Part shown: piece after piece, positions 6,295 through 24,654 of the stretch
Layout of the letters: each line of letters opens with the position of its first letter
Position numbering within the stretch: position 1 is the first letter of the stretch
NCBI RefSeq assembly: GCF_001017655.1
Contig: NZ_CP010904.1
Coordinates: 2,640,001 to 2,672,000, forward strand
Reading direction: 5' to 3'
Origin: Kiritimatiella glycovorans
Lineage (GTDB): Bacteria; Verrucomicrobiota; Kiritimatiellia; Kiritimatiellales; Kiritimatiellaceae
Length of the DNA: 32,000 bases
Position numbers and translations under genes: made by a program
Notes under the pieces: generated by a model
The model's database searches: none
Told to the model about the DNA's origin: nothing
Seen by the model: the letters and a program-made list of their open reading frames with translations, nothing else

Positions 6295-7191
6295 TCAGTA
6301 GGGTTTCTGGACCGTGACCAGACCGCCGACTTCGCCCGAGCCCGTGCGCAGGACGAATCCTTCGCCCTCATCAAGCGTCTTGCCCGGAGTATTCCAGTCG
6401 CCCGTGAATGCGTTGTAGCTGACCGACTCCGCCGGCGGTTTGTTCTGTCCCGTCGCACCGTTGTCATACAGCTTCAGCGAACGACCGGTGTTCGCCGAAA
6501 CGGAGGCGGCCGTTACATCGACCGGGAAGCCGGATCCGATGTGGTAGTCGTCTTCCACACCCGCCGCGACGATGAACGCCGCCTTCACCTGCGGCACATC
6601 GCCGGCACAGGCAAACGTCAGCTCCTCGCCGGAACCGTTGCGGATGATCATCTGCGTCAGCGGCGGCACGATGGTGGCGGGCGTATTCCAGTTTCCGCCG
6701 AATGCATCGTAACTCACCGTATCCGAAGGCGCGTCGTCCACACCCACGGTGGCGCTGTTGTAGAACTTCAGCGAAACGTCGTTCGTGTAACTGATCCCGA
6801 AATGACTTTCGGGGAACAGCGACGCCACGGTGTGATGCGGGATCACCTGGAATGCATCGCCCGCGCTGATATGCGTCAGCACGTTCGTGTTTTCCATCGT
6901 GAATCCATCCGTCCCGTTGTCGCTGATCGTGGTCCACAGGCCTTCGCCCGTGCCGCTGGTCATCCGGATGTAATAATCATCCGCATAGTCACCAGCGGTC
7001 AGCGTGTCGGACACCGTCACGCCCGTCGCCGTCTTCGTGTCGACCGTCGTTTCCAACGCATAGTCCTGGCTGAAAGGCACCGAGACCATTACGTCGGCAC
7101 CGGCGGGAATCGTGGTGGCATTGTAGCCGACCCATTCCCCGGCCAACACGACCGGCGCGGACAGCAACAGGGCCGCCGCCGCAGTCATCAT
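6295..7191 (-). CDS. Secreted protein with two ~55-aa internal repeats (298 aa); resembles PVC-group secreted paralog families (tentative)
   Basis: Track ORF is 6295..7323. I prefer ATG 7191, which gives MMTAAAALLLSAPVVLAGE (signal). The 44 upstream codons are Arg/Pro-rich and look non-coding. Repeats: SLKFYNSATVGVDDAPSDTVSYDAFGGNWNTP..IIRNGSGEE and SLKLYDNGATGQNKPPAESVSYNAFTGDWNTP..VLRTGSGEV. Confidence 0.75.
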   Translation of the reverse strand: MMTAAAALLLSAPVVLAGEWVGYNATTIPAGADVMVSVPFSQDYALETTVDTKTATGVTVSDTLTAGDYADDYYIRMTSGTGEGLWTTISDNGTDGFTMENTNVLTHISAGDAFQVIPHHTVASLFPESHFGISYTNDVSLKFYNSATVGVDDAPSDTVSYDAFGGNWNTPATIVPPLTQMIIRNGSGEELTFACAGDVPQVKAAFIVAAGVEDDYHIGSGFPVDVTAASVSANTGRSLKLYDNGATGQNKPPAESVSYNAFTGDWNTPGKTLDEGEGFVLRTGSGEVGGLVTVQKPY

Positions 7192-7460
7192 ATGTTTCTT
7201 CGTACTCACTCCTCGTCCTCTCTTTTTCGGTTTCGGTTCTCTGCTCTCCTCCACCGGGCGACGGACCTCCCGCCGCCTTGCTCCGCCCTGCTGTGCAGCA
7301 GGACACGATTGCTCGTCATTCAAACTCCGGCAGGCCGCCCTCCCTTCTGTTCCCCGCCCGCCAGCGATGAACGACGCAGGGCATTCACACGTATGCCCGT
7401 TAAGAAAAAGTTAGGTCCGTCTGAAATATGGGTTAAATCGAAGGGAAGGGAGAACGCCGC

Positions 7461-7483
7461 AAAAACAGCGCCGCCGAGGCGCT
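7461..7483 (-). terminator. Candidate intrinsic terminator inside the long spacer
   Basis: Minus strand reads AGCGCC-TCGGC-GGCGCT-G-TTTTT. That is a 6-bp GC stem, a 5-nt loop and a U5 run. It lies about 270 nt upstream of the cassette start codon at 7191. Confidence 0.35.
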
Positions 7484-7590
7484 CCCGGCTCGTCGTGGCA
7501 CGGCATCCGTTTGCCATCGTGCCCCCCCCCTGAAAGGCGTATCCAGCTGCGTTCATGAAAACGAAAGACAATGCACACGATGACTGTTAG

Positions 7591-7612
7591 GGGATAGTTA
7601 GGGGGTAGTTAG
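7591..7612. repeat. Tandem 11-mers GGGATAGTTAG / GGGGTAGTTAG (minus strand: three CTAAC-containing units)
   Basis: Read directly. A partial third unit, CTGTTAG, lies at 7584-7590. Confidence 0.8.
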
Positions 7613-7666
7613 AATTGTATGGAAGGGAAAGGAGGAGAGAGAAACGGGAAGAAAGAGGGGGACAAG

Positions 7667-7712
7667 AAAGAGGTTAACCATGAAGGGGGGAAGGGCATGA
7701 AGGGAAAGGCAA
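7667..7712 (+). repeat. Left arm of a perfect 46-bp inverted repeat
   Basis: AAAGAGGTTAACCATGAAGGGGGGAAGGGCATGAAGGGAAAGGCAA is the exact reverse complement of 8297-8342. Imperfect purine-rich similarity continues outward to about 7640. Confidence 0.95.
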
Positions 7713-7806
7713 AAAATTGACAGGATGAGGGAAAAGGAGGCGGAAATATTAACCGAGCCTCTTGCAAAACACCCCGCAGCGCGGCGCCTGACGGCTTGCG
7801 TCGCAA

Positions 7807-7879
7807 CGTACGCGTACTCGTACTCAGCGAAGCGGTACTCGTACTCGAATTCCTTGAATCGGGGGAGTGGGATCGCGCC
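7807..7879 (+). repeat. GTACTC-hexamer module, copy A
   Basis: CGTACGCGTACTCGTACTCAGCGAAGCGGTACTCGTACTCGAATTCCTTGAATCGGGGGAGTGGGATCGCGCC. It matches the reverse complement of 19874-19945 with about 5 mismatches and 1 indel (hand alignment). Confidence 0.9.
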
Positions 7880-7980
7880 CTACCCAAGAGGTGCAAGCCG
7901 AACCCATGCGTGAGGGTAGGGACGGACCTCCGGGCCGTCCGCAAAACCGGCGCGCTTAGCCTGTCCGCCGAAGGCATAAA

Positions 7981-8041
7981 GGGCCGTTACGTTCACGCAC
8001 CCGGCCTGCCGAGGGGCAGGCGTGCGGCGCTACTACGAACG
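7981..8041. repeat. REP-like imperfect palindrome, copy A
   Basis: GGGCCGTTACGTTCACGCACCCGGCCTGCCGAGGGGCAGGCGTGCGGCGCTACTACGAACG. The core hairpin is CGCAC..GCCTGCC-GAGG-GGCAGGC-GTGCG. It is roughly 85% identical to 22541-22600 by hand alignment. Confidence 0.85.
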
Positions 8042-8178
8042 TTTGTCGTCTTCCATCCCGCCTCTTCCCCGAACGGCTCCACCACAAAAATCTGCGAAGA
8101 ATCCCAAAAAAGCCTTTTTCGGACCCTCACACGTCCGAACGCACCGAAACGTACGCGGGCGCGCCATGTTCACGTACA

Positions 8179-8223
8179 GAACCCCTCGTGGCGACCGCCG
8201 CAGGCGGGCGACGCGAAGGGTTC
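8179..8223. other. Long imperfect hairpin (about 18 of 21 positions paired, 3-nt loop)
   Basis: GAACCCCTCGTGGCGACCGCC-GCA-GGCGGGCGACGCGAAGGGTTC, paired by hand from both ends. Confidence 0.7.
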
Positions 8224-8296
8224 TGCAAGAGCCTCTCCCTGTAATCAAATCTTAAACTCCTGAGCCTCTCCTATATGCCTATCTCTTGCCTTTCCC

Positions 8297-8342
8297 TTGC
8301 CTTTCCCTTCATGCCCTTCCCCCCTTCATGGTTAACCTCTTT
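8297..8342 (-). repeat. Right arm of the perfect 46-bp inverted repeat
   Basis: TTGCCTTTCCCTTCATGCCCTTCCCCCCTTCATGGTTAACCTCTTT. An 11-bp tandem duplication TTGCCTTTCCC (8286-8296 and 8297-8307) sits at its inner edge. An imperfect pyrimidine-rich extension runs to about 8378. Confidence 0.95.
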
Positions 8343-8430
8343 TCTTTCTCCCCCCTTCCCCCCCTTTCTTCCGCTGGACAACCGCGCCGAGTGCGTTAGC
8401 ATGGGCCCACCAATCCGCACCGCGGCCGAT

Positions 8431-9219
8431 ATGAAAGACACACAGAACTCTCCGGACTTCCGCAACATGCCCATCCGCAAGGTGGGCATCAAGGGACTGC
8501 GCTACCCGATCATCGTCAAGGATCGCCAGTACGAGTCCCAGCACACCGTGGCCCGCGTGAATATGTACGTGGACCTGCCGCACCATTTCAAAGGCACGCA
8601 CATGTCCCGGTTCGTGGAGATTCTCAACCAGTACCACGGCCGCATCTCGATCCATAAACTCGAGGGCATCCTGCGCGCCATGATCCGTACCCTCGACTCC
8701 CGCACCGCCCACCTCGAAATACGGTTCCCCTACTTCATCGAAAAACAGGCGCCGGTCTCCGGCGCCGTGTCGCTGATGGATTACGACTGCGCCTTTATCG
8801 CCTCACTGGATACCAACGGCGAGGAACACCCCCCCGACCTGGTCGTCGAAGTCGACGTCCCCGTCTGTACCCTCTGCCCCTGCTCCAAAGCGATCAGTAC
8901 GGACGGCGCGCACAACCAGCGCTCCTCCATCCGTATCCAGATCCGCAGCCAGGCCATGGTGTGGATCGAAGACCTCATCGAAATCGCGGAATCCGAGGCC
9001 AGCGCCCCCCTCTACTCGCTGCTGAAGCGCGAGGACGAAAAAGCCGTCACCGAACAGGCCTACCGGAACCCGCGCTTCGTCGAAGATGTCGTCCGCGGCG
9101 TGGGCGTGCGCCTGAAAGAAGACCCCCGCATCGACTGGTACCGCGTGGAAAGCGAAAATGCCGAAAGCATCCATAACCACAGCGCCTACGCACTCGTCGA
9201 ACCTGAAAAGAGACGCTGA
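8431..9219 (+). CDS. folE2: GTP cyclohydrolase IB (FolE2 / GCYH-IB, DUF198 family)
   Basis: Motifs: MKDTQNSPDFRNMPIRKVGIKGLRYPIIV, HHFKGTHMSRFVEIL, CTLCPCSKAISTDGAHNQRS, ENAESIHNHSAYA. The track ORF starts at 8275, but its first 52 codons translate the pyrimidine arm of the inverted repeat. ATG 8431 (alternative 8401) gives the usual FolE2 N-terminus. Confidence 0.9.
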   Translation: MKDTQNSPDFRNMPIRKVGIKGLRYPIIVKDRQYESQHTVARVNMYVDLPHHFKGTHMSRFVEILNQYHGRISIHKLEGILRAMIRTLDSRTAHLEIRFPYFIEKQAPVSGAVSLMDYDCAFIASLDTNGEEHPPDLVVEVDVPVCTLCPCSKAISTDGAHNQRSSIRIQIRSQAMVWIEDLIEIAESEASAPLYSLLKREDEKAVTEQAYRNPRFVEDVVRGVGVRLKEDPRIDWYRVESENAESIHNHSAYALVEPEKRR

Positions 9220-9384
9220 ACTTCCGTCCCCGAACCGAACCCGACCGCACCCCCCTGACCCCTCTCCGCAATATCGTCATACTTAGCTACAATCCTTTCA
9301 TCCGGCCGGGCCTCGCACACTTCTCCCTGCATCCGCCTAATATCGGCCGGCTCCCCGCAAGGTATCGCGCCACTTTTCGACCCC

Positions 9385-9430
9385 TTAATCGCAACATTTT
9401 TATATTTTCACTGTCTAATCTTCTATAAAG
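9385..9430 (+). promoter_or_regulatory. AT-rich island, candidate promoter/operator for the URO-D-Trx / COG0523 operon
   Basis: TTAATCGCAACATTTTTATATTTTCACTGTCTAATCTTCTATAAAG sits in otherwise GC-rich DNA, about 75 nt upstream of ATG 9503. I could not fit a clean -35/-10 pair or a palindromic operator. Confidence 0.35.
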
Positions 9431-9502
9431 GCGCCGCGGACTGCCCTAGTTTACGGGCTGAGATGCAGCCAGTGCCGTGTCAGACGGCGGAGGAGCGAGG
9501 CG

Positions 9503-10912
9503 ATGAAGGGAAAAGATGTGCTGTTGCGCGCGCTCGGGCGCGAGACGACGGAGCGGCCGGCGTGGGTGCCTTTCGTGGGCGTGCACGGCGGGAACCTGAT
9601 CGGCGAACGCGCGGACGATTATCTGAAGTCGAGTGATTCGATCGTAAAGGGGATCCGCAGGGCGAACGAACTCTACCGCCCGGACGGCATCCCCGTGGCA
9701 TTCGACCTGCAGATCGAGGCGGAGGTGCTGGGCTGCGACCTGCACTGGGACAGCAATGTCCCCCCGTCGGTCACCACCCATCCGCTCGAAGGCGGCACGG
9801 CGCTGGAGGACCTGCCGGACCTGAGCGAGGACGGCGGACGCTTTCCGGTCGTCCTCGCCGCACTGGACCGGCTCAGGGAGGAGATCGGCGATGAAACCGC
9901 CCTCTACGGGCTGGTTTGCGGCCCGTTCACGCTCGCCCTCCACCTCGCGGGCAACGAGATCTTTATTGATATGTACGACGACGAAGCCAAGGTTCGCAAA
10001 CTGGTCGAACGCTGCGCGGACTATGCGATTCAGTCGGCGGGCTTCTATCTGGACCACGGGGCGGACGTGATCGCCGTCGTCGATCCCATGACCAGCCAGA
10101 TCTCGGCGGAACACTTCACGGGCTTCGTCACCCCCGCCATGAACCGGGTCTTTGACTATATCCGCGGACGCGGATCGTACTCCTCGATCTTCGTCTGTGG
10201 CGACGTGAGCCGCAACCTGGACGTGATGTGCGGGACGGAGGCGGACCACATCTCGGTCGACGAACAGATCGATATGACCCGCCTGCGTGAGCTGGCGGAG
10301 AAGAACGGCAAGGCGTTCGGAGGGAATATCCGCCTTACGTCCGTGCTGCTGCTCGGGGACGAGGACGACGCGAAGCTGGAGACCCTGAACATCATGGACC
10401 GCAGCGGCTGCACCGGCTTCGTGCTCTCGCCCGGCTGCGACCTCCCGTACCACACCCCGCCGGCCAACCTGCAGGCCGTGGCGGAGATGGTGCACGACGA
10501 GTACGCCCGCGAAGTGGCGCGCAAGGTGCTTGCGGCCCGGGGCGAAAAGGAGGAAGAAACGTACGACGACATCGAACTGCCCGATTACGACGCGCAGAAA
10601 GCGGTGACGCTCGATGTCATCACCCTCGACTCGACCTCGTGCGCACCCTGCCAGTATATGATGGACGCGGTGCGACGCGCGGCAGACGACGCGTTCGTGA
10701 AGACCTATGTGAATGAACACAAGATCATGGTCCGCGACGGGATCGGCATGATGGCGCGACTGGGGGTGAAAAACCTCCCCACGATCTGTATCGACGGCGA
10801 GATCGCGTTCTCGTCGATCATTCCCGACCACAACACGCTGGTCGAAGCGATCGAAAACAAGGCGGTCGACAAGAATTACGTTTCGAAAAACGGAGGAGAT
10901 CCGAACTCATGA
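9503..10912 (+). CDS. Uroporphyrinogen-decarboxylase-fold (MtaA/CmuA-like methyltransferase family) protein fused to a C-terminal thioredoxin-fold CxxC domain
   Basis: GGAGGAG SD upstream. The N-terminal ~340 aa has URO-D/MtaA-like features: RPAWVPFVG, DPMTSQIS, IFVCGDV, GFVLSPGCDLPYHTPP. It lacks the HemE PxWxMRQAGR signature. The C-terminal ~85 aa (VITLDSTSCAPCQYM..LPTICIDGEIAF) resembles small redox-active disulfide (Thioredoxin_3-type) proteins. Confidence 0.85.
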   Translation: MKGKDVLLRALGRETTERPAWVPFVGVHGGNLIGERADDYLKSSDSIVKGIRRANELYRPDGIPVAFDLQIEAEVLGCDLHWDSNVPPSVTTHPLEGGTALEDLPDLSEDGGRFPVVLAALDRLREEIGDETALYGLVCGPFTLALHLAGNEIFIDMYDDEAKVRKLVERCADYAIQSAGFYLDHGADVIAVVDPMTSQISAEHFTGFVTPAMNRVFDYIRGRGSYSSIFVCGDVSRNLDVMCGTEADHISVDEQIDMTRLRELAEKNGKAFGGNIRLTSVLLLGDEDDAKLETLNIMDRSGCTGFVLSPGCDLPYHTPPANLQAVAEMVHDEYAREVARKVLAARGEKEEETYDDIELPDYDAQKAVTLDVITLDSTSCAPCQYMMDAVRRAADDAFVKTYVNEHKIMVRDGIGMMARLGVKNLPTICIDGEIAFSSIIPDHNTLVEAIENKAVDKNYVSKNGGDPNS

Positions 10913-11814
10913 TCCCGGTCTGCCTCGTCACAGGCTTCCTCGGCGCGGGAAAGACGACGTTCATGAAAAGTCTGGTCCGCCGCTACGGGGAGCGGCGGTT
11001 CGTCTATCTCGTGAATGAGTTCAACCCGCGCGATATCGACGGCGCGCTGGTCTCGGAGGAGAACCCGGACGTGGTGTCCATCCCCGGCGGAAGCATCTTC
11101 TGCCGCTGTCTGGTGACCGAGTTCATCGGACAGCTGAAAAACGTGCCCGAACGCTGGCCCGAAACAGAGGGCGTGATTATTGAGGCGAGCGGGATGGCGG
11201 ACCCGGGAGTGATCGGCGATATGCTGGCGGAGACGAAGCTCGATCGCGTCTACAGACTCCACCGCGTGATCAGCATCGTCGATCCCGGCACCTTCCTGAA
11301 GCTCGTCAGGACGCTCCCCAATATCACCACCCAAGTGAAGTCCGCGGACACGGTACTCGTCAATAAGACGGACCTCCACGAAGAAGAACAGCTCCGCGCC
11401 GTCGAACATGCGGTCCGTGAAACCGGCACGCAGGCGGAGATCGTACGCTGCGTCCGCACCGGAGCGGAAATTCCGATCTTCGAGTCGCCCGCCTCGGCTC
11501 TCGAGTTTCACGGTGAATACGCGAAGTGCCGCGATCCGAACTACGCGACGTTCGAGGTGCGCGCGGAAAAACCCGTCGATCCCGCCGCACTCGAAGAAGC
11601 GCTGAAGACCGGGGCGGACGATCTCTACCGTATCAAGGGCTACGCCCCCGCCCCCGACGGAGGCCTGCACTACCTCGATTATGCCGCCGGGCGGCTTACG
11701 ACCGAAAAGACCGGGGCGCAGGGTCGCGAGCCCGTAACCGTCTGGATCGTCCGCGGCGGATGCGAAGATACACTCGCGCCCTGGGCGGAGAAGGTGCTCA
11801 ACGACGGGGCATGA
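10909..11814 (+). CDS. COG0523 / CobW-family G3E P-loop GTPase (putative metallochaperone)
   Basis: Its ATG overlaps the upstream stop (ATGA at 10909-10912). Motifs: Walker A GFLGAGKTT, EASGMADP, NKTD. It has a CobW_C-like C-terminus. The metal motif is FCRCL rather than the canonical CxCC, and there is no His-rich tract. Confidence 0.9.
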   Translation: MIPVCLVTGFLGAGKTTFMKSLVRRYGERRFVYLVNEFNPRDIDGALVSEENPDVVSIPGGSIFCRCLVTEFIGQLKNVPERWPETEGVIIEASGMADPGVIGDMLAETKLDRVYRLHRVISIVDPGTFLKLVRTLPNITTQVKSADTVLVNKTDLHEEEQLRAVEHAVRETGTQAEIVRCVRTGAEIPIFESPASALEFHGEYAKCRDPNYATFEVRAEKPVDPAALEEALKTGADDLYRIKGYAPAPDGGLHYLDYAAGRLTTEKTGAQGREPVTVWIVRGGCEDTLAPWAEKVLNDGA

Positions 11815-16382: not shown

Positions 16383-16940
16383 TTAATGATTGGTATCGTA
16401 TATTGTCAATTTATAGTTCTTCAGGTACACGGCCGCAGCCTTGATCCCCTCGCCGTATTGCACCGGAGCGTTGACCCCTTCGGGGAACGCGGCTTTGTTC
16501 AGATGGCCGCAGGCGCAGGTTTTGGTTTCAGCCTGGTGCTCGGTGACGATCAGCCGCAGGGGTGGCAGGTCATGGACTTGACGCTTTTCGATGCCCTCGA
16601 CGGATTGATCGGCTAGAGAGCGGCCGCAGTGTTCGCATTCCTTCACACGGTGCACTTCGGTGTGCTCGGGCTTGTCGGCCATCGCGAGCGTATGGCCGGT
16701 ATGGCCGGGCTGGCCGCCGGACTTGCGCTTGCCCTTCTTGCGCAGGCTTTTGGGCGCAGGTTTCTTGAAGCCGTCGCTGGAGGGCGGTTTGCTGCTGTTG
16801 CGCGAGTTTTTGGCGAGTTGGTTCTCAAGAGACTGAACGCGTTCTTCCAGAGCACGGATGCGCGCATCCATCATCAACAGTACCCGCACGACGGTTTCCT
16901 TGCCGGCGTCGTAGATCGCTTCGGCCTCTTGGCGTGTCAT
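16383..16940 (-). pseudogene. IS66-family transposase, N-terminal fragment only (leucine-zipper + zf-IS66 regions; DDE domain missing)
   Basis: Sequence: MTRQEAEAIYDAGKETVVRVLLMMDARIRALEERVQSLENQLAKNSRNSSKPPSSDGFKK..GGQPGHTGHTL..CEHCGRSL..EKRQVHDLPP..TEHQAETKTCACG..FPEGVNAPVQYGEGIKAAAVYL. It then diverges (KNYKLTIYDTNH*) at about 16415-16421. A full-length IS66 TnpC is roughly 500 aa; this is 185 aa. Confidence 0.8.
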
Positions 16941-17980
16941 CACCTGCCCGCCCTCCCTTCGGTTCGGGAGCAGGCGGGTGCGCACAACTCCCGCCGGAAC
17001 TCCGGGATGAGCGGATACAGATACACGTCCTTGACCGGCGCCTGGATGCGGCGGTCTCGATCGTTGCGGGTCCGCCCCTGCGTTGCGCCCAGGCGCATCC
17101 AGTTCGCGGCCCGGTAGCAGGTGCCTTTGAATCGGGAACGGTCCACGAACGTTTCCAAGGCATGCACGGGATGAGCGTACTTGCCCTGCCAGTCATCCCG
17201 GATGCGCCGGGCAATGAGGCCGAGGACGTGGCTGGCCAGATGCGGGACTTCGACCCAGGGCAGGATCAGGAAACGCGTATTGTTGGTCAATGCCTGGAGA
17301 TTGCGTTCACGGCAGGCCCGATCCCAGCCGAGGAAACGATCCCGATCCGCGCATTTCCATGCCGCCGAACCGAACAGCGCACAGGCCACGAGCCGACCGT
17401 GCCGGTCGCGGATCAGATAGCGCAGGTTCTCGCCCACCGTGTTGCGATGGCCCAAGTAGTGGTATCGGCCCAGCAGCCCTTTGAACAACTGCGAGTTATC
17501 CGAACGTGGGGCGACAAGGTCTGCCGACAGGGGCCGCAATGCGCTCAGGTCAGAGCGAATCGGTTCGGCGGCAGGTTCTACGGCAGGCACGCACCGGTTG
17601 CGGAAATGATTGGAAGACGGGCGTTGACGCGCCGGCAACTCGATGCATCCGCGCCGCTCCAGCTTCAACAGCAGGGAGCGCGCCGCCATGTCCTTGATAC
17701 GGCCCTGCGCGTTGCGCCAGTTCCAGCAGCGGCACAGTTCCCCGCTGAGGCGGGTACGCCCCCAGTCCCGATGCTCTGCCATCAAATCCCGGATCAAGGC
17801 GATCTCGCCGTCCGTGATCTTCCGCCCCTGAATGACCATAGCCTGTGCCATGGTCAGCAGCGTAGAAGACCACGCGATCCGAGTCCAGCAGAAACCGCGA
17901 CTTTTTTCTGTTGCGCTCGGGGGGGGGTAGACTACGATTGTTTCAGTGGTAGCGCCATGGTGGGGCTACCTGAGTAGTTA
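16415..17980 (-). mobile_element. Putative 1566-bp IS66-derived (non-autonomous?) insertion carrying a DUF4338 gene + truncated transposase
   Basis: The 8-bp direct repeat CAATTTAT lies at 16407-16414 and 17981-17988; IS66-family target duplications are 8 bp. An inverted 7-mer, TCAGGTA (16421-16427) and TACCTGA (17967-17973), sits 6-7 nt inside each repeat. The insertion splits an AT-rich divergent promoter spacer between the GH and sulfatase genes. Confidence 0.45.
16940..17851 (-). CDS. DUF4338-family protein (the family of Druantia DruA), here IS-associated
   Basis: 303 aa. Motifs I associate with DUF4338: LLGRYHYLGHRNTVGENLRYLI, ALFGSAAWKCADRDRFLGW, NNTRFLILPWVEVPHLASHVL, LETFVD..RFKGTCYRAANW. 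Its stop TGA (16942-16940) overlaps the transposase-fragment ATG (16940-16938) by 1 nt. Confidence 0.65.
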   Translation of the reverse strand: MAQAMVIQGRKITDGEIALIRDLMAEHRDWGRTRLSGELCRCWNWRNAQGRIKDMAARSLLLKLERRGCIELPARQRPSSNHFRNRCVPAVEPAAEPIRSDLSALRPLSADLVAPRSDNSQLFKGLLGRYHYLGHRNTVGENLRYLIRDRHGRLVACALFGSAAWKCADRDRFLGWDRACRERNLQALTNNTRFLILPWVEVPHLASHVLGLIARRIRDDWQGKYAHPVHALETFVDRSRFKGTCYRAANWMRLGATQGRTRNDRDRRIQAPVKDVYLYPLIPEFRRELCAPACSRTEGRAGR

Positions 17981-19586: not shown

Positions 19587-19590
19587 AAGC

Positions 19591-19616
19591 GGATCCGAAC
19601 GGGATCTGTTTTTCTC
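19591..19616 (+). terminator. Weak candidate intrinsic terminator after the sulfatase
   Basis: GGATCC-GAACG-GGATCT is a 5-6 bp stem, followed by GTTTTTCTC. Confidence 0.4.
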
Positions 19617-19718
19617 TCGCCAGGCCGCCACCTGACTTCAACATTGCCCGAAGAAGCGCTCGAATCCCCCTGTGAACATTGAAGTGAGTTTTGAATCAGG
19701 GTGTCCCGGCGGAAAAAA

Positions 19719-19836
19719 GGGTTATTCGTGGATTTTTATGGAAGGGTTCCCGGGAAAGGTGGGATGCGGCAGATCGGAGGAGAGAGAGAGAACGATGAAG
19801 GACATGAAGAGCATGAAGGTTGGTTGAGGGGGGGAC
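19719..19836 (+). repeat. Purine-rich CATGAAGG module, copy B (related to 7616-7740 and, inverted, 8265-8378)
   Basis: GGGTTATTCGTGGATTTTTATGGAAGGG..GGAGGAGAGAGAGAGAACGATGAAGGACATGAAGAGCATGAAGG parallels TTGTATGGAAGGG..GGAGGAGAGAGAAACG..CATGAAGGGGGGAAGGGCATGAAGG at locus A. The first 25 nt also match 22243-22267 at 22 of 25 positions. Confidence 0.8.
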
Positions 19837-19840
19837 ATAT

Positions 19841-19945
19841 ACTCGTACTCGTACGCGTACTCGGAGCGCCGAAGGCGCGATCCCATCCATCGATTCAAGG
19901 AATTCAAGCACGAGTACCGCTTCGCTGAGTACGAGTACGAGTACG
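19841..19945 (-). repeat. 105-bp element bounded by inverted (GTACTC)n hexamer arrays; copy B of the GTACTC module
   Basis: Left end ACTCGTACTCGTACGCGTACTC (19841-19862). Right end GAGTACGAGTACGAGTACG (19927-19945). Interior 19874-19945 is the reverse complement of 7807-7879. Confidence 0.9.
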
Positions 19946-20010
19946 ATATTCCCCCGAGTGTCCCCATGTTGAACTCAGGAAACGGTGCGGAGTTCAAGGT
20001 AATTCGCACC

Positions 20011-22187: not shown

Positions 22188-22275
22188 GTGATGCTCCATT
22201 CGATGCGGGCACTATAACGCAACGCGCGAAAGACTTGAAGGAGGGTTATTCCTGGATTTTTGTGAAACTGCCGGA

Positions 22276-22323
22276 ATCGCAAAGATGGATGAGGATAGCG
22301 TAGGCAAAGAGATCGTGCTCCCT
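22276..22323 (+). repeat. ~50-nt direct repeat, copy 1
   Basis: ATCGCAAAGATGGATGAGGATAGCGTAGGCAAAGAGATCGTGCTCCCTC compared with copy 2 at 22449-22498. Confidence 0.85.
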
Positions 22324-22448
22324 CGAAGGAAGAAATTACCTGGCGACCTTGGCGGCTTGGCGAGAGAAAAACGGGTTGAAGTCACTTCAGCGGACGGAGT
22401 GCCGCCGCTGACAAATACACAAGACATGACTCTCGCCAAGGCGCAGAG

Positions 22449-22498
22449 ATCGCAAAGATGAATGAGAAGAGCAGAGGCAAAGAGATCGTGCGCTCTCT
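22449..22498 (+). repeat. ~50-nt direct repeat, copy 2
   Basis: ATCGCAAAGATGAATGAGAAGAGCAGAGGCAAAGAGATCGTGCGCTCTCTC. Confidence 0.85.
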
Positions 22499-22502
22499 CT
22501 TG

Positions 22503-22600
22503 CGTTCGTAGTAGGCCCGCAGACCCGCGAAGCGGGGCCAGGGCCGTTATCTTTCACGCTCCTGGCCTGCCGGGGCAGGCTTGCGGCGCTACTACGAACG
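22503..22600. repeat. 98-nt foldback containing REP-like copy C
   Basis: A perfect 12-nt inverted repeat, CGTTCGTAGTAG (22503-22514) and CTACTACGAACG (22589-22600), encloses the hairpins CCCGC-GAA-GCGGG and GCCTGCC..GGCAGGC. 22541-22600 is homologous to 7981-8041. Confidence 0.85.
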
Positions 22601-22647
22601 ATATCCCGCACCTTCACATCGTCGCCGCAACGTGCTAAAGCATACCC

Positions 22648-24328: not shown

Positions 24329-24457
24329 GGGACCGCGGATGGTATCCGGTTGTCCGGTAATGGGTTTCCGAGTCGCCGGGTTGTTGGCGCACGCAAGGTG
24401 GGGCGGTTCCGATGTACAGCAGAAGGCCGTCCGCAAAAGAGCGGCGCGCTCGGAGAG

Positions 24458-24509
24458 CACGCCCTGCCCGGGAGACGCAAGCCGAACCAGGGCGTGATTC
24501 GATTTCATT
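24458..24509 (+). terminator. Candidate terminator hairpin
   Basis: A perfect 9-bp stem, CACGCCCTG (24458-24466) and CAGGGCGTG (24488-24496), with a 21-nt loop, followed by ATTCGATTTCATT. The long loop and interrupted U-run make it weak. Confidence 0.3.
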
Positions 24510-24654
24510 AGCGCCCATCAGCGGTTCTCCTTCTTCCTGAACCGCGAACTGACGCGAATATTTATGCCCGCCGGCGGGGAGTCACTACGAAACACGTTCT
24601 CTATCCCGATCCCCGCAGGGATTCTTGCGCAGGTGTCAGGCTTCCTCTGCCCCC

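What the first reader, a model, noticed from the sequence alone, without database searches (positions are those of the whole stretch)
7192..8430. 1.24-kb gene-free divergent spacer with a perfect 46-bp inverted repeat bracketing 584 bp: candidate invertible switch, foldback element or large structured RNA
Seen:
- No credible CDS lies between the cassette start (7191, minus) and folE2 (8431, plus). The track ORFs there are low-complexity translations of purine or pyrimidine tracts.
- 7667-7712 is the exact reverse complement of 8297-8342 (46/46). Imperfect purine-rich extensions run outward to about 7640 and about 8378.
- The arms enclose 584 bp. Directly inside the left arm is A6 + TTGACA (7711-7722). 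Further in are a GTACTC-hexamer module (7807-7879) and several long hairpins (7981-8041, 8179-8223).
- An 11-bp tandem duplication sits at the inner edge of the right arm.

Inference:
- Long IRs bracketing a few hundred bp between a surface-protein/TonB operon and another operon is the geometry of a phase-variable invertible promoter (inverton).
- One alternative is a foldback MITE.
- Another is a long RNA whose purine 5' arm pairs with its pyrimidine 3' arm.
- No recombinase is encoded in this window.
Basis: partly seen in the sequence, partly recalled or inferred. Interest (0 to 1): 0.75.

Follow-up and report, generated by a model that had tools for sequence, protein, structure and literature searches.

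The report
Inverted-repeat bracket made of dispersed repeats
The perfect 46-bp inverted repeat is real, but it is most likely a foldback of dispersed intergenic repeat modules, some shared with bacteria of several other phyla, lodged between two operons of Kiritimatiella glycovorans, and not a promoter switch or an RNA gene.

Summary
Window 7667-7712 is the exact reverse complement of 8297-8342 (46/46). Imperfect purine-rich extensions reach 7640 and 8369, and 584 bp lie between the arms. The spacer has no credible CDS. The source is Kiritimatiella glycovorans L21-Fru-AB.

The inverton reading is not supported:
- The 32-kb window encodes no recombinase.
- The 584-bp segment holds no promoter-like site. 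The only such sites lie outside the arms.

The interior is a patchwork of short modules that recur in three other large spacers of the window, two of them between convergent genes. Two modules belong to widespread families:
- The GTACTC module (a truncated half here) matches a hairpin repeat whose 22-mer occurs exactly in more than 120 loci of Planctomycetota, Melioribacteraceae, Chlorobiota and other groups.
- The arms are three ~9-nt CATGAAGGG units. They resemble the arms of a hairpin family found in more than 120 metagenome contigs. That family's loop is either short or exactly one GxxExxY (TIGR04256) gene.

Neither family is in Rfam, and neither sequence appears in the searched literature.

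Best reading: a decayed, ORF-less foldback repeat composite. The closest described kind is the IR-bordered intervening sequence (IVS) of 23S rRNA. Inversion cannot be excluded without reads.

The parts
7640..7666 (.). Left outer, imperfect purine-rich extension of the inverted repeat
   Evidence: It pairs with 8343-8369 with mismatches and two 1-nt indels.
7667..7712 (+). Left arm, perfect 46-nt core. Reading outer to inner: GGTTAACC, then three ~9-nt units CATGAAGGG / GGGAAGGG / CATGAAGGG, then AAAGGCAA.
   Evidence: 46/46. TRF reports 3 x CATGAAGGG at 7679-7704. It is the second-best window hit of two hairpin-arm profiles, in the correct polarity.
7713..8296 (.). 584-bp interior ('loop'): non-coding mosaic of repeat fragments
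   Evidence: No homologues or Pfam hits for its ORFs. No GxxExxY remnant by tblastn. No promoter-like site. RNA fold z = -2.5.
7807..7879 (+). GTACTC-hexamer module: the 5' arm plus most of the loop of a hairpin repeat. The GAGTAC partner arm is missing.
   Evidence: 92% identical to the reverse complement of 19874-19945. The 22-mer at 7820-7841 has more than 120 exact hits in other genomes. No GAGTAC run in the spacer.
7871..7955 (+). Two short pieces (7871-7913, 7933-7955) repeated in the spacer at 24.4 kb, plus a local GGACGG..CCGTCC hairpin
   Evidence: 7871-7913 matches 24455-24497 at 77%. 7933-7955 matches 24425-24447 at 83%. The hairpin is read directly from the sequence.
7980..8041 (+). 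3' half of a second hairpin module. The complete copy is at 22503-22600.
   Evidence: 89% identical to 22540-22600. 22503-22600 is a 98-nt self-complementary unit.
8177..8225 (.). Local 49-nt imperfect palindrome (hairpin)
   Evidence: Self inverted match at 77.6%. It appears in the MFE folds.
8276..8309 (+). 11-nt tandem repeat (3.1 copies) that extends the inner end of the right arm
   Evidence: TRF. L001 also shows two copies.
8297..8342 (-). Right arm, perfect 46-nt core (pyrimidine strand on +)
   Evidence: Conserved in the relative L001, 44 nt at 97.7%.
8343..8369 (.). Right outer, imperfect extension of the inverted repeat
   Evidence: Partly deleted in L001.
7586..7612 (+). 11-nt tandem repeat GTTAGGGGATA x2.5, just outside the left arm. 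Possibly part of the repeat mosaic.
   Evidence: TRF.
7614..7643 (-). Weak promoter-like site facing the TIGR02597/TonB cassette (TTCTCT-18-TACAAT), outside the IR
   Evidence: Lenient scan, 8 of 12 matches. A consensus match only.
8375..8402 (+). Promoter-like site facing folE2 (TGGACA-16-TAGCAT), outside the IR
   Evidence: The -35 part is deleted in L001, so its function is doubtful.
19792..19946 (+). Related copy elsewhere in the window: a purine 9-mer x3 module (19792-19821) next to a complete GTACTC hairpin (19839-19946), in a spacer between convergent genes
   Evidence: nhmmer E = 2.3e-7 and 0.008. IR 19843-19862 / 19927-19946. Fold. Gene layout.

Best explanation
The 733-bp unit (7640-8372) is a non-coding foldback composite built from dispersed intergenic repeat modules. 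It is not a dedicated genetic switch.

The arms. Its two arms are inverted copies of a purine-rich module made of three ~9-nt units: TTAACC-ATGAAGG-...-CATGAAGG. The design and polarity match the arms of a widespread hairpin repeat with consensus TTCACCAC GAAGGACAC GAAGAGCAC GAAGG ... CCTTCGTG..CTTCGTGGTGAA. In other bacteria that hairpin has one of two loop types:
- a short loop of 15-275 nt;
- a loop that brackets exactly one small gene for a GxxExxY protein (a PD-(D/E)XK-fold family).

The loop. Here the loop is 584 bp and carries no such gene. It is filled with truncated halves of other hairpin repeats: a GTACTC-hexamer hairpin arm, half of a CGTTCGTAGTAG hairpin, and smaller fragments.

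Shown here: the repeat anatomy, the recurrence of the modules, and the lack of coding, promoter and recombinase signals.

Inferred:
- The unit arose by insertion and decay of such elements in a permissive 1.2-kb divergent spacer.
- It is largely neutral or selfish DNA.
- If it is transcribed in either direction, its 46-73-bp stem would form a long duplex. By analogy with the IR-bordered intervening sequences of 23S rRNA, RNase III would be expected to cut that duplex.
- The perfect 46-bp identity also permits rare homologous-recombination flips, with no evident regulatory consequence.
For: Mosaic interior:
- 7807-7879 matches the reverse complement of 19874-19945 (92%).
- 7980-8041 matches 22540-22600 (89%).
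- 7871-7913 matches 24455-24497 (77%).
- The four largest spacers of the window share further modules with each other.
- Two of those spacers lie between convergent genes, so the modules are not promoter parts.

Both larger interior modules are truncated halves of hairpins that are complete elsewhere in the window.

GTACTC module:
- The layout is nearly always (GTACTC)n-loop-(GAGTAC)n.
- The copies are almost all intergenic. Convergent spacers are enriched and divergent spacers depleted.

Arms:
- TRF calls them 3 x CATGAAGGG.
- The 9-mer x3 pattern retrieves more than 120 metagenome contigs with hairpin partners.
- Loop sizes are 15-275 nt or 373-390 nt, the latter being one 123-aa TIGR04256 gene (E = 1e-41).
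- The variable C/T position in the 5' arm is matched by G/A in the 3' arm in 107 of 108 cells.
- Profiles of the 5' arms and of the unconstrained 3' arms hit 19792-19821 (E = 2e-7 and 0.008). The two IR arms are the next-best hits, on the correct strands, each with a collinear second segment.

Negative evidence for other functions:
- No CDS, recombinase or Rfam family.
- No promoter-like site between the arms.

Precedent: the Coxiella IVS has a 28-bp terminal IR stem cut by RNase III, an AG-rich stretch plus three tandem heptamers at its 5' end, and a decaying small ORF (PMC4990558).
Against: - The arms' match to the hairpin-arm profiles is not significant on its own (E = 0.55-0.78). The middle 9-nt unit is degenerate, and the arm is longer (46-73 nt) than typical family arms (~30 nt).
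- The arm 26-mer has no other copy in the window or in two public collections. Dispersal of this exact arm is therefore unproven.
- The source genome could not be scanned.
- The loop holds no trace of a GxxExxY gene.
- The 9-mer modules lie next to GTACTC hairpins in only 7 of 124 cases, so a fixed 'nested' architecture is not general.
- No transcription data and no read data were available.
Confidence: 0.6

Rival explanations
1. Phase-variable inverton. A site-specific recombinase encoded elsewhere flips 7713-8296 between the 46-bp repeats. This switches expression of the TIGR02597/TonB-receptor cassette and/or the folE2-COG0523 operon.
For: - A perfect IR brackets a few hundred bp between divergent operons, one of them for surface/outer-membrane proteins.
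- Intergenic invertons are frequent in the related phylum Verrucomicrobia: Akkermansia has 5.55 per genome in the PhaVa survey.
- The palindrome GGTTAACC lies within each arm.
Against: - No tyrosine or serine recombinase in the 32-kb window.
- No sigma-70-like site inside the segment on either strand, even with lenient rules. The promoter-like sites lie outside the arms.
- The arms are low-complexity tandem 9-mers resembling a dispersed hairpin family, most of whose members have loops of 15-50 nt, too short for a promoter cassette.
- The interior is made of truncated repeat fragments.
- The relative L001 shows the same junction as the window at the right arm, though only about 17 nt are informative.
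Confidence: 0.12
2. Duplicated regulatory module. Each arm is an upstream operator or activator site for the outward-facing promoter next to it. The two divergent operons, possibly both zinc-responsive, would then be co-regulated, perhaps by looping out the 584 bp.
For: - Both arms read the same way towards their gene.
- Promoter-like -10 hexamers lie 48 nt (left) and 55 nt (right) beyond the perfect cores.
- folE2 with a COG0523/CobW GTPase is the classic make-up of a zinc-limitation regulon, and a TonB receptor cassette lies opposite. The regulon link rests on general knowledge and was not tested.
Against: - In L001 25 nt between the arm and the -10-like hexamer, including the -35-like box, are deleted. 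The spacing is therefore not conserved.
- A related module sits in a spacer between convergent genes.
- No AT-rich Zur/Fur-like palindrome was found in the outer spacer.
- Both promoter calls are weak consensus matches.
Confidence: 0.1
3. A large structured non-coding RNA, or a long structured 5' leader, whose purine 5' arm pairs with its pyrimidine 3' arm.
For: - The fold is very stable on both strands: z = -16.2 and -11.9 for 7640-8372.
- Several internal hairpins are present.
Against: - No Rfam family matches at gathering score or at E<=5.
- The stability comes from the IR itself. The interior alone has z = -2.5.
- The interior pieces recur separately, and truncated, in other spacers. The unit is therefore not conserved as a whole.
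- No homologous spacers exist for a covariation test. The nearest genomes have FolE2 at 71% identity or less.
Confidence: 0.08

Closest known systems
Bacterial intervening sequences (IVS) of 23S rRNA, e.g. Coxiella burnetii, Leptospira, Salmonella (PMC4990558)
   Same: - A few hundred nt are bordered by terminal inverted repeats that form a long stem.
- The 5' border is AG-rich with short tandem repeats: three GACAGAT heptamers in Coxiella, three ~9-nt units here.
- The loop holds a small ORF that is often decaying or absent.
- The elements are regarded as selfish and horizontally spread.
   Different: - This unit is not in an rRNA gene.
- It has no ORF, neither S23p/four-helix-bundle nor GxxExxY.
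- Its stem is longer (46-73 bp against 28 bp).
- RNase III cleavage is untested.
- Its loop is filled with fragments of other repeats.
REP / BIME / REPIN-type extragenic palindromic repeats (E. coli, Pseudomonas); comparison from general knowledge
   Same: - Short hairpin-forming modules are dispersed in intergenic regions.
- They combine in mosaics and in both orientations.
- The GTACTC hairpins favour gene 3' ends.
   Different: - REP families are normally species- or genus-specific and tied to a RAYT transposase.
- Here the 22-mer is identical across several phyla, and no RAYT link was seen or tested.
- The arms are tandem 6-9-nt units with variable copy number.
MITEs / foldback elements (e.g. 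Correia elements); comparison from general knowledge
   Same: A non-autonomous-looking unit with terminal inverted repeats and no coding capacity. In Melioribacteraceae the GTACTC hairpin sits inside a larger repeated unit of about 190 nt with conserved flanks.
   Different: - There is no target-site duplication at either IR boundary (read from the sequence).
- No second copy of the whole unit was found.
- The IR grades into imperfect low-complexity sequence instead of ending sharply.
Invertons (fimS, hin, Bacteroides capsule promoters, Akkermansia invertons)
   Same: An IR pair brackets a few hundred bp in an intergenic region next to surface/outer-membrane genes.
   Different: - No invertase is nearby.
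- No promoter was detected in the segment.
- No evidence of two orientations was obtained.
- The arms resemble a repeat family rather than a recombinase core site.
Cyanobacterial short tandemly repeated repetitive (STRR) sequences; from memory, not checked here
   Same: Tandem 6-9-nt units populate intergenic regions. Examples here are GTACTC, CATGAAGGG and GTTAGGGGATA. In Ca. Laterigemmans there are also CAGGTTT, CTGAACC and CCCGCCTC.
   Different: Here the tandem units are organised as the paired arms of hairpins, and one family brackets a gene.

Membership tests
Inverton (site-specific invertible promoter) | Pair of inverted repeats flanking the segment | tested here: met
   46/46 perfect, 584 bp apart.
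Inverton (site-specific invertible promoter) | Both orientations present in a population | not testable with these tools
   No reads were available, and the source genome is withheld from look-ups. The one related contig (L001) shows the window's junction over about 17 nt only.
Inverton (site-specific invertible promoter) | Cognate tyrosine or serine recombinase | tested here: not met
   None among the window's genes. The only transposase-related ORF is an IS66 N-terminal fragment. The rest of the genome could not be tested.
Inverton (site-specific invertible promoter) | Promoter (or other directional signal) inside the invertible segment | tested here: inconclusive
   No sigma-70-like site at 7713-8296 on either strand, even at 8 of 12 matches. 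Promoter rules for Kiritimatiellota are unknown.
MITE / foldback transposon | Terminal inverted repeats with sharp ends flanked by a target-site duplication | tested here: not met
   The IR decays gradually outward. There is no direct repeat at the 7640/8369 or the 7667/8342 boundaries.
MITE / foldback transposon | Multiple dispersed copies of the whole unit | tested here: inconclusive
   No second copy in the window. The arm 26-mer is absent from genome and metagenome collections. The source genome itself could not be scanned.
9-mer x3 hairpin repeat (GxxExxY-associated; described here) | Arms of three ~9-nt units CAYGAAGNN with an (T)TMACCAY outer end, purine arm 5' and pyrimidine arm 3' | tested here: met
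   TRF gives 3 x CATGAAGGG. The outer end TTAACCATGAAGG is identical to L196. 23 of 28 positions match the L219 3' arm. Polarity is as in the family.
9-mer x3 hairpin repeat (GxxExxY-associated; described here) | Statistically significant match to a profile of family arms | tested here: inconclusive
   nhmmer E = 0.55 and 0.78 for the best segment, and E = 7-12 for the collinear second segment. These are the second-best hits in the window, after 19792-19821.
9-mer x3 hairpin repeat (GxxExxY-associated; described here) | Loop is short (15-275 nt) or is one GxxExxY ORF (~373-390 nt) | tested here: not met
   The loop is 584 nt with no GxxExxY remnant. One family member has a 630-nt loop, but it contains the gene.
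23S rRNA intervening sequence (IVS) | Inserted in a 23S rRNA helix and excised by RNase III | tested here: not met
   No rRNA in the window. The unit lies between protein-coding operons. Cleavage is not testable.
Curated structured RNA family (Rfam 15) | Covariance-model match | tested here: not met
   No hit at gathering score in the window. Only two chance-level hits at E<=5 in 7100-8500. The GTACTC hairpin loci also give no hit.
REP/REPIN | Association with a RAYT (Y1 transposase) gene and a genome-specific high copy number | not tested
   Needs the whole genome. None is encoded in the window.

The most novel reading that the evidence does not exclude
The two module families uncovered here may be parts of an undescribed, horizontally spreading class of nested hairpin elements. 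The families are the GTACTC-AGCGAAGCG hairpin and the 9-mer x3 hairpin that tightly brackets a GxxExxY PD-(D/E)XK gene. 'Full' copies would encode the GxxExxY nuclease that mobilises or maintains them. 'Empty' hairpins would be their MITE-like derivatives. The K. glycovorans unit would be a large decayed composite. Its 46-bp stem may still act in cis, for example as an RNase III cut site or as a substrate for inversion between a zinc-limitation operon and a TonB cassette.
Probability: 0.22. Interest if true: 0.75.

Novelty: new variant of a known kind. Interest (0 to 1): 0.45.

Why it matters
For this locus, the result removes a tempting false positive. Long perfect inverted repeats in PVC-group intergenic regions can be stacked repeat modules rather than phase-variation switches. 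IR-based inverton screens should mask such families.

More broadly, the trail led to two hairpin-repeat families with near-identical sequence across distant phyla. Neither is in Rfam, and neither sequence appears in the searched literature. One of them brackets, to within 0-2 nt, the gene of a protein family of unknown function (GxxExxY, PF13366). This makes two questions directly testable:
- what GxxExxY proteins do;
- how IVS-like elements spread.

Tried and rejected
- Exact look-ups of the window's FolE2 and of P0121 found nothing on record. The source genome appears to be withheld, so no genome-wide copy count or recombinase search was possible.
- The arm 26-mer gave 0 hits in genome contigs and in metagenome contigs.
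- No similarity of the spacer to plasmids.
- Homologous cassettes in relatives at 58% identity (L002-L006) are not adjacent to folE2 and have no comparable IR upstream. Comparative and covariation analysis of the spacer was therefore impossible.
- Spurious-ORF searches aimed at catching an inverted-orientation contig in the relative's sample found nothing.
- The PhaVa preprint holds no supplement text to check for K. glycovorans.
- My guess that GTACTC-hairpin loops hold four-helix-bundle pseudogenes was not confirmed: no NCBIfam hit.
- Viral-contig scans were uninformative. The 22-mer gave 0 hits, and the arm-grammar pattern hit only a phage coding sequence.
- A riboswitch or attenuator reading of the cassette leader was rejected: 7455-7610(-) has z = 0 and no Rfam hit.
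- A Zur-box-like AT-rich palindrome was not found.
- A fixed nested architecture (9-mer modules bracketing GTACTC hairpins) is not general: 7 of 124 cases.
Full report
**The observation.** The window comes from Kiritimatiella glycovorans L21-Fru-AB. The left-flank protein is 100% identical to its TIGR02597 family protein. FolE2, the URO-D-like protein and the CobW-like protein are its AKJ65472-65474.

- Positions 7667-7712 are the exact reverse complement of 8297-8342, 46/46.
- The repeat finder extends the arms to 7640-7712 / 8297-8369: 73 nt, 88% complementary, 584 nt between them.
- A gapped alignment shows that the outer 27 nt are imperfect, purine-rich and carry two 1-nt indels.
- No other inverted repeat of this quality exists in the 32 kb.
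- The spacer is non-coding. Its long ORFs have no homologues, and ten spacer ORFs give no Pfam hit at E<=10.
- FolE2 aligns to PF02649 from residue 1 when started at 8431.
- The left gene probably starts at GTG 7209 (304 aa).
- A 985-bp contig from the only close relative in the databases (L001; FolE2 97% identical, the next relatives 71% or less) carries the right arm next to folE2, 44 nt at 97.7%. The arm is therefore native sequence.

**Surroundings.**
- To the left lies a cassette of a TIGR02597 protein and three proteins without family hits. A TonB-dependent-receptor-like ORF follows and runs off the window. The homologous cassette in relatives ends in a TonB receptor, DUF3450 and ExbB, but there it is not next to folE2.
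- To the right lie folE2, an MtaA/URO-D-thioredoxin fusion and a CobW/COG0523 GTPase. By general knowledge this looks like a zinc-limitation operon.
- No recombinase is encoded anywhere in the window. The only transposase-related ORF is an IS66 N-terminal fragment.

**Tests of the proposed functions.**
- Rfam gives nothing at gathering score for the window, and only chance-level hits at E<=5 for 7100-8500.
- The unit folds far better than shuffles (z = -16 and -12), but this is the IR itself. The 584-nt interior alone has z = -2.5.
- The standard promoter scan finds one site, at 8375-8402(+), outside the right arm.
- A lenient scan adds 7643-7614(-), outside the left arm. It finds nothing between the arms on either strand.
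- The TTGACA just inside the left arm has no -10 partner.
- In L001 the 25 nt holding the -35-like box of the folE2-side site are deleted.

**The interior is a mosaic.** Comparing the spacer with the rest of the window shows that its pieces recur elsewhere:

| Spacer piece | Matches | Identity |
|---|---|---|
| 7807-7879 | reverse complement of 19874-19945 | 92% |
| 7980-8041 | 22540-22600 | 89% |
| 7871-7913 | 24455-24497 | 77% |
| 7933-7955 | 24425-24447 | 83% |

- The four largest spacers of the window share still more modules among themselves.
- Two of these spacers (19587-20010 and 24329-24654) lie between convergent genes. The modules are therefore not promoter components.
- At 19839-19946 the GTACTC module is a complete hairpin. 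At 22503-22600 the second module is a complete 98-nt hairpin.
- In the spacer under study each is only a half. The interior thus looks like decayed repeat debris.

**The GTACTC hairpin family.**
- Matches include 22 loci in Ca. Laterigemmans baculatus, many other Pirellulales, two Melioribacteraceae, Prosthecochloris and Rhodothermales. There are also MAGs labelled Deltaproteobacteria, Fibrobacterota, Bacteroidota and Bacillota. The MAG labels should be treated with caution.
- The element is a hairpin, (GTACTC)n[AGCGAAGCG GTACTCGTACTC]m - loop - (GAGTAC)n. Arm copy numbers vary and loops are mostly 8-112 nt.
- It is almost always intergenic. By a crude gene caller it is enriched in convergent spacers and depleted in divergent ones: 26 convergent / 44 tandem / 10 divergent, against a background of 64 / 170 / 81.
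- It is not an Rfam family.
- No paper in the library contains the sequence.

**The arms.**
- TRF describes each arm as three copies of CATGAAGGG.
- A cleaner version, GATGAAGGACATGAAGAGCATGAAGG, sits at 19795-19820 beside the complete GTACTC hairpin. Ca. Laterigemmans has the analogous CACGGAAGGACACGGAAGAGCACGGAAGG in both orientations, sometimes as inverted pairs a few hundred bp apart.
The consensus is TTCACCAC GAAGGACAC GAAGAGCAC GAAGG. It is followed after a loop by CCTTCGTG..CTTCGTGGTGAA.
- Of the 123 arms found, 61 have a partner within 1.5 kb. Their loops are 15-275 nt, or 373-390 nt, or 630 nt (one case).
- The 373-375-nt loops are exactly one 123-aa ORF that begins 0-2 nt after the arm. 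It is a TIGR04256 GxxExxY protein, E = 1e-41 to 1e-44. Its Pfam family PF13366 has unknown function and signs of multiple horizontal transfers.
- The variable C/T in the 5' arm is matched by G/A in the 3' arm in 107 of 108 cells.
- Profiles built from the 5' arms, and independently from the unconstrained 3' arms, hit 19792-19821 (E = 2e-7 and 0.008). The next-best hits in the window are the two IR arms, on the expected strands, each with a collinear second segment (E = 0.55-0.78 and 7-12).
- The outer end TTAACCATGAAGG is identical to one metagenomic member (L196). The arm matches another member's 3' arm (L219) at 23 of 28 positions.
- I take this as good but not conclusive evidence that the arms are a diverged CATGAAGG-type member of this design.
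- The loop carries no trace of a GxxExxY gene.

**Interpretation.** The best-supported reading is a foldback composite of dispersed repeat modules lodged in a permissive divergent spacer.
- The closest described kind is the IR-bordered intervening sequence of 23S rRNA. In Coxiella this has a 28-bp terminal stem cut by RNase III, an AG-rich stretch plus three tandem heptamers at its 5' border, and a small ORF undergoing decay.
- REP/BIME mosaics and MITEs are the other near relatives.
- The unit fails the MITE tests that could be run (no target-site duplication, no second copy). It is not in an rRNA gene.
- The inverton reading keeps some probability, for two reasons. Perfect 46-bp repeats can recombine, and Verrucomicrobia are rich in invertons.
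- Every testable defining feature of an inverton other than the IR itself came out negative or inconclusive.

**Limits.**
- The source genome could not be scanned, so the copy number of the arm and of the modules in K. glycovorans is unknown beyond this window.
- No reads or transcript data were available.
- The gene-context statistics rest on a crude ORF caller.

Noticed in passing
window 7820-7841 and 19839-19946; loci L007-L126: The GTACTC-AGCGAAGCG hairpin repeat has a 22-mer that is exact in more than 120 loci of several phyla, with many copies per genome in Pirellulales. The arm copy number varies (tandem 21-nt units in L040, L050, L063). Each arm contains GC-NNN-GC mini-palindromes (GCGAAGC, GCGCAGC). 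It is not in Rfam or in the searched papers.
   Followed up: partly
loci L127-L246 (e.g. L185 881-1300, L217, L232, L148): A 9-mer x3 hairpin (TTCACCACGAAGGACACGAAGAGCACGAAGG ... CCTTCGTG..CTTCGTGGTGAA) brackets a 123-aa GxxExxY (TIGR04256) gene to within 0-2 nt, or encloses only a short loop. This looks like full and empty forms of one element. Sibling word variants were seen in loops and flanks (CGCAAAGNN, CACAGAGNN, CACAGAT).
   Followed up: partly
window 22200-22647: This divergent spacer between the SppA-like and aspartate ammonia-lyase-like genes holds a 98-nt hairpin (22503-22600) and a 49-nt direct repeat (22276-22324 / 22449-22497, 86%). It also shares two short modules with the 19.6-kb spacer: 19608-19630 matches the reverse complement of 22350-22372 (96%), and 19718-19743 matches 22242-22267 (88%).
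   Followed up: no
window 16383-17851 (-): An IS66 transposase N-terminal fragment (DUF6444 + zf-IS66, 200 aa) overlaps the end of a DruA-like (Druantia) ORF. This is probably a disrupted mobile or defence remnant.
   Followed up: no
window 8431-11814 (+): folE2, an MtaA/URO-D-thioredoxin fusion and a CobW/COG0523 GTPase form one operon, typical of zinc-limitation regulons. No Zur/Fur-like AT-rich palindrome was found upstream.
   Followed up: partly
window 8275-8430: The GenBank protein AKJ65472 (314 aa) starts FolE2 at 8275, inside the repeat arm. RefSeq WP_052882695 (262 aa) starts at 8431, which fits the Pfam profile. The longer call translates the pyrimidine arm.
   Followed up: yes
window 7467-7483 (-): A terminator-like hairpin with a T-run (AGCGCCTCGGCGGCGCT GTTTTTGCGG) lies about 260 nt upstream of the cassette start codon, between the repeat unit and the gene. 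The surrounding leader is no more structured than shuffles (z = 0).
   Followed up: partly
L010 3922-4143 (-): A group II intron (RF02005, 146 bits) begins about 80 nt downstream of a GTACTC hairpin in Ca. Laterigemmans baculatus. The hairpin may be an intron homing or landing context.
   Followed up: no
L027, L043, L047, L124 (Ca. Laterigemmans baculatus): Intergenic regions are packed with arrays of short tandem repeats (CAGGTTT, CTGAACC, CCCGCCTC, an 18-nt CTCCCCTGTCATCCGCGT unit) around the hairpins. Inverted pairs of the CACGGAAG module lie 285-590 nt apart, the same geometry as the finding.
   Followed up: partly
L008, L049, L059 (Melioribacteraceae): Here the GTACTC hairpin is the core of a longer repeated unit of about 190 nt with conserved AT-rich flanks (TATTCTTGCTTTTTTTGGCAGAATATTGAATTGAG ... 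TTTGAATTTCTTTTTGGTTCTGGCTTTGCCAGC). It looks MITE-like.
   Followed up: no
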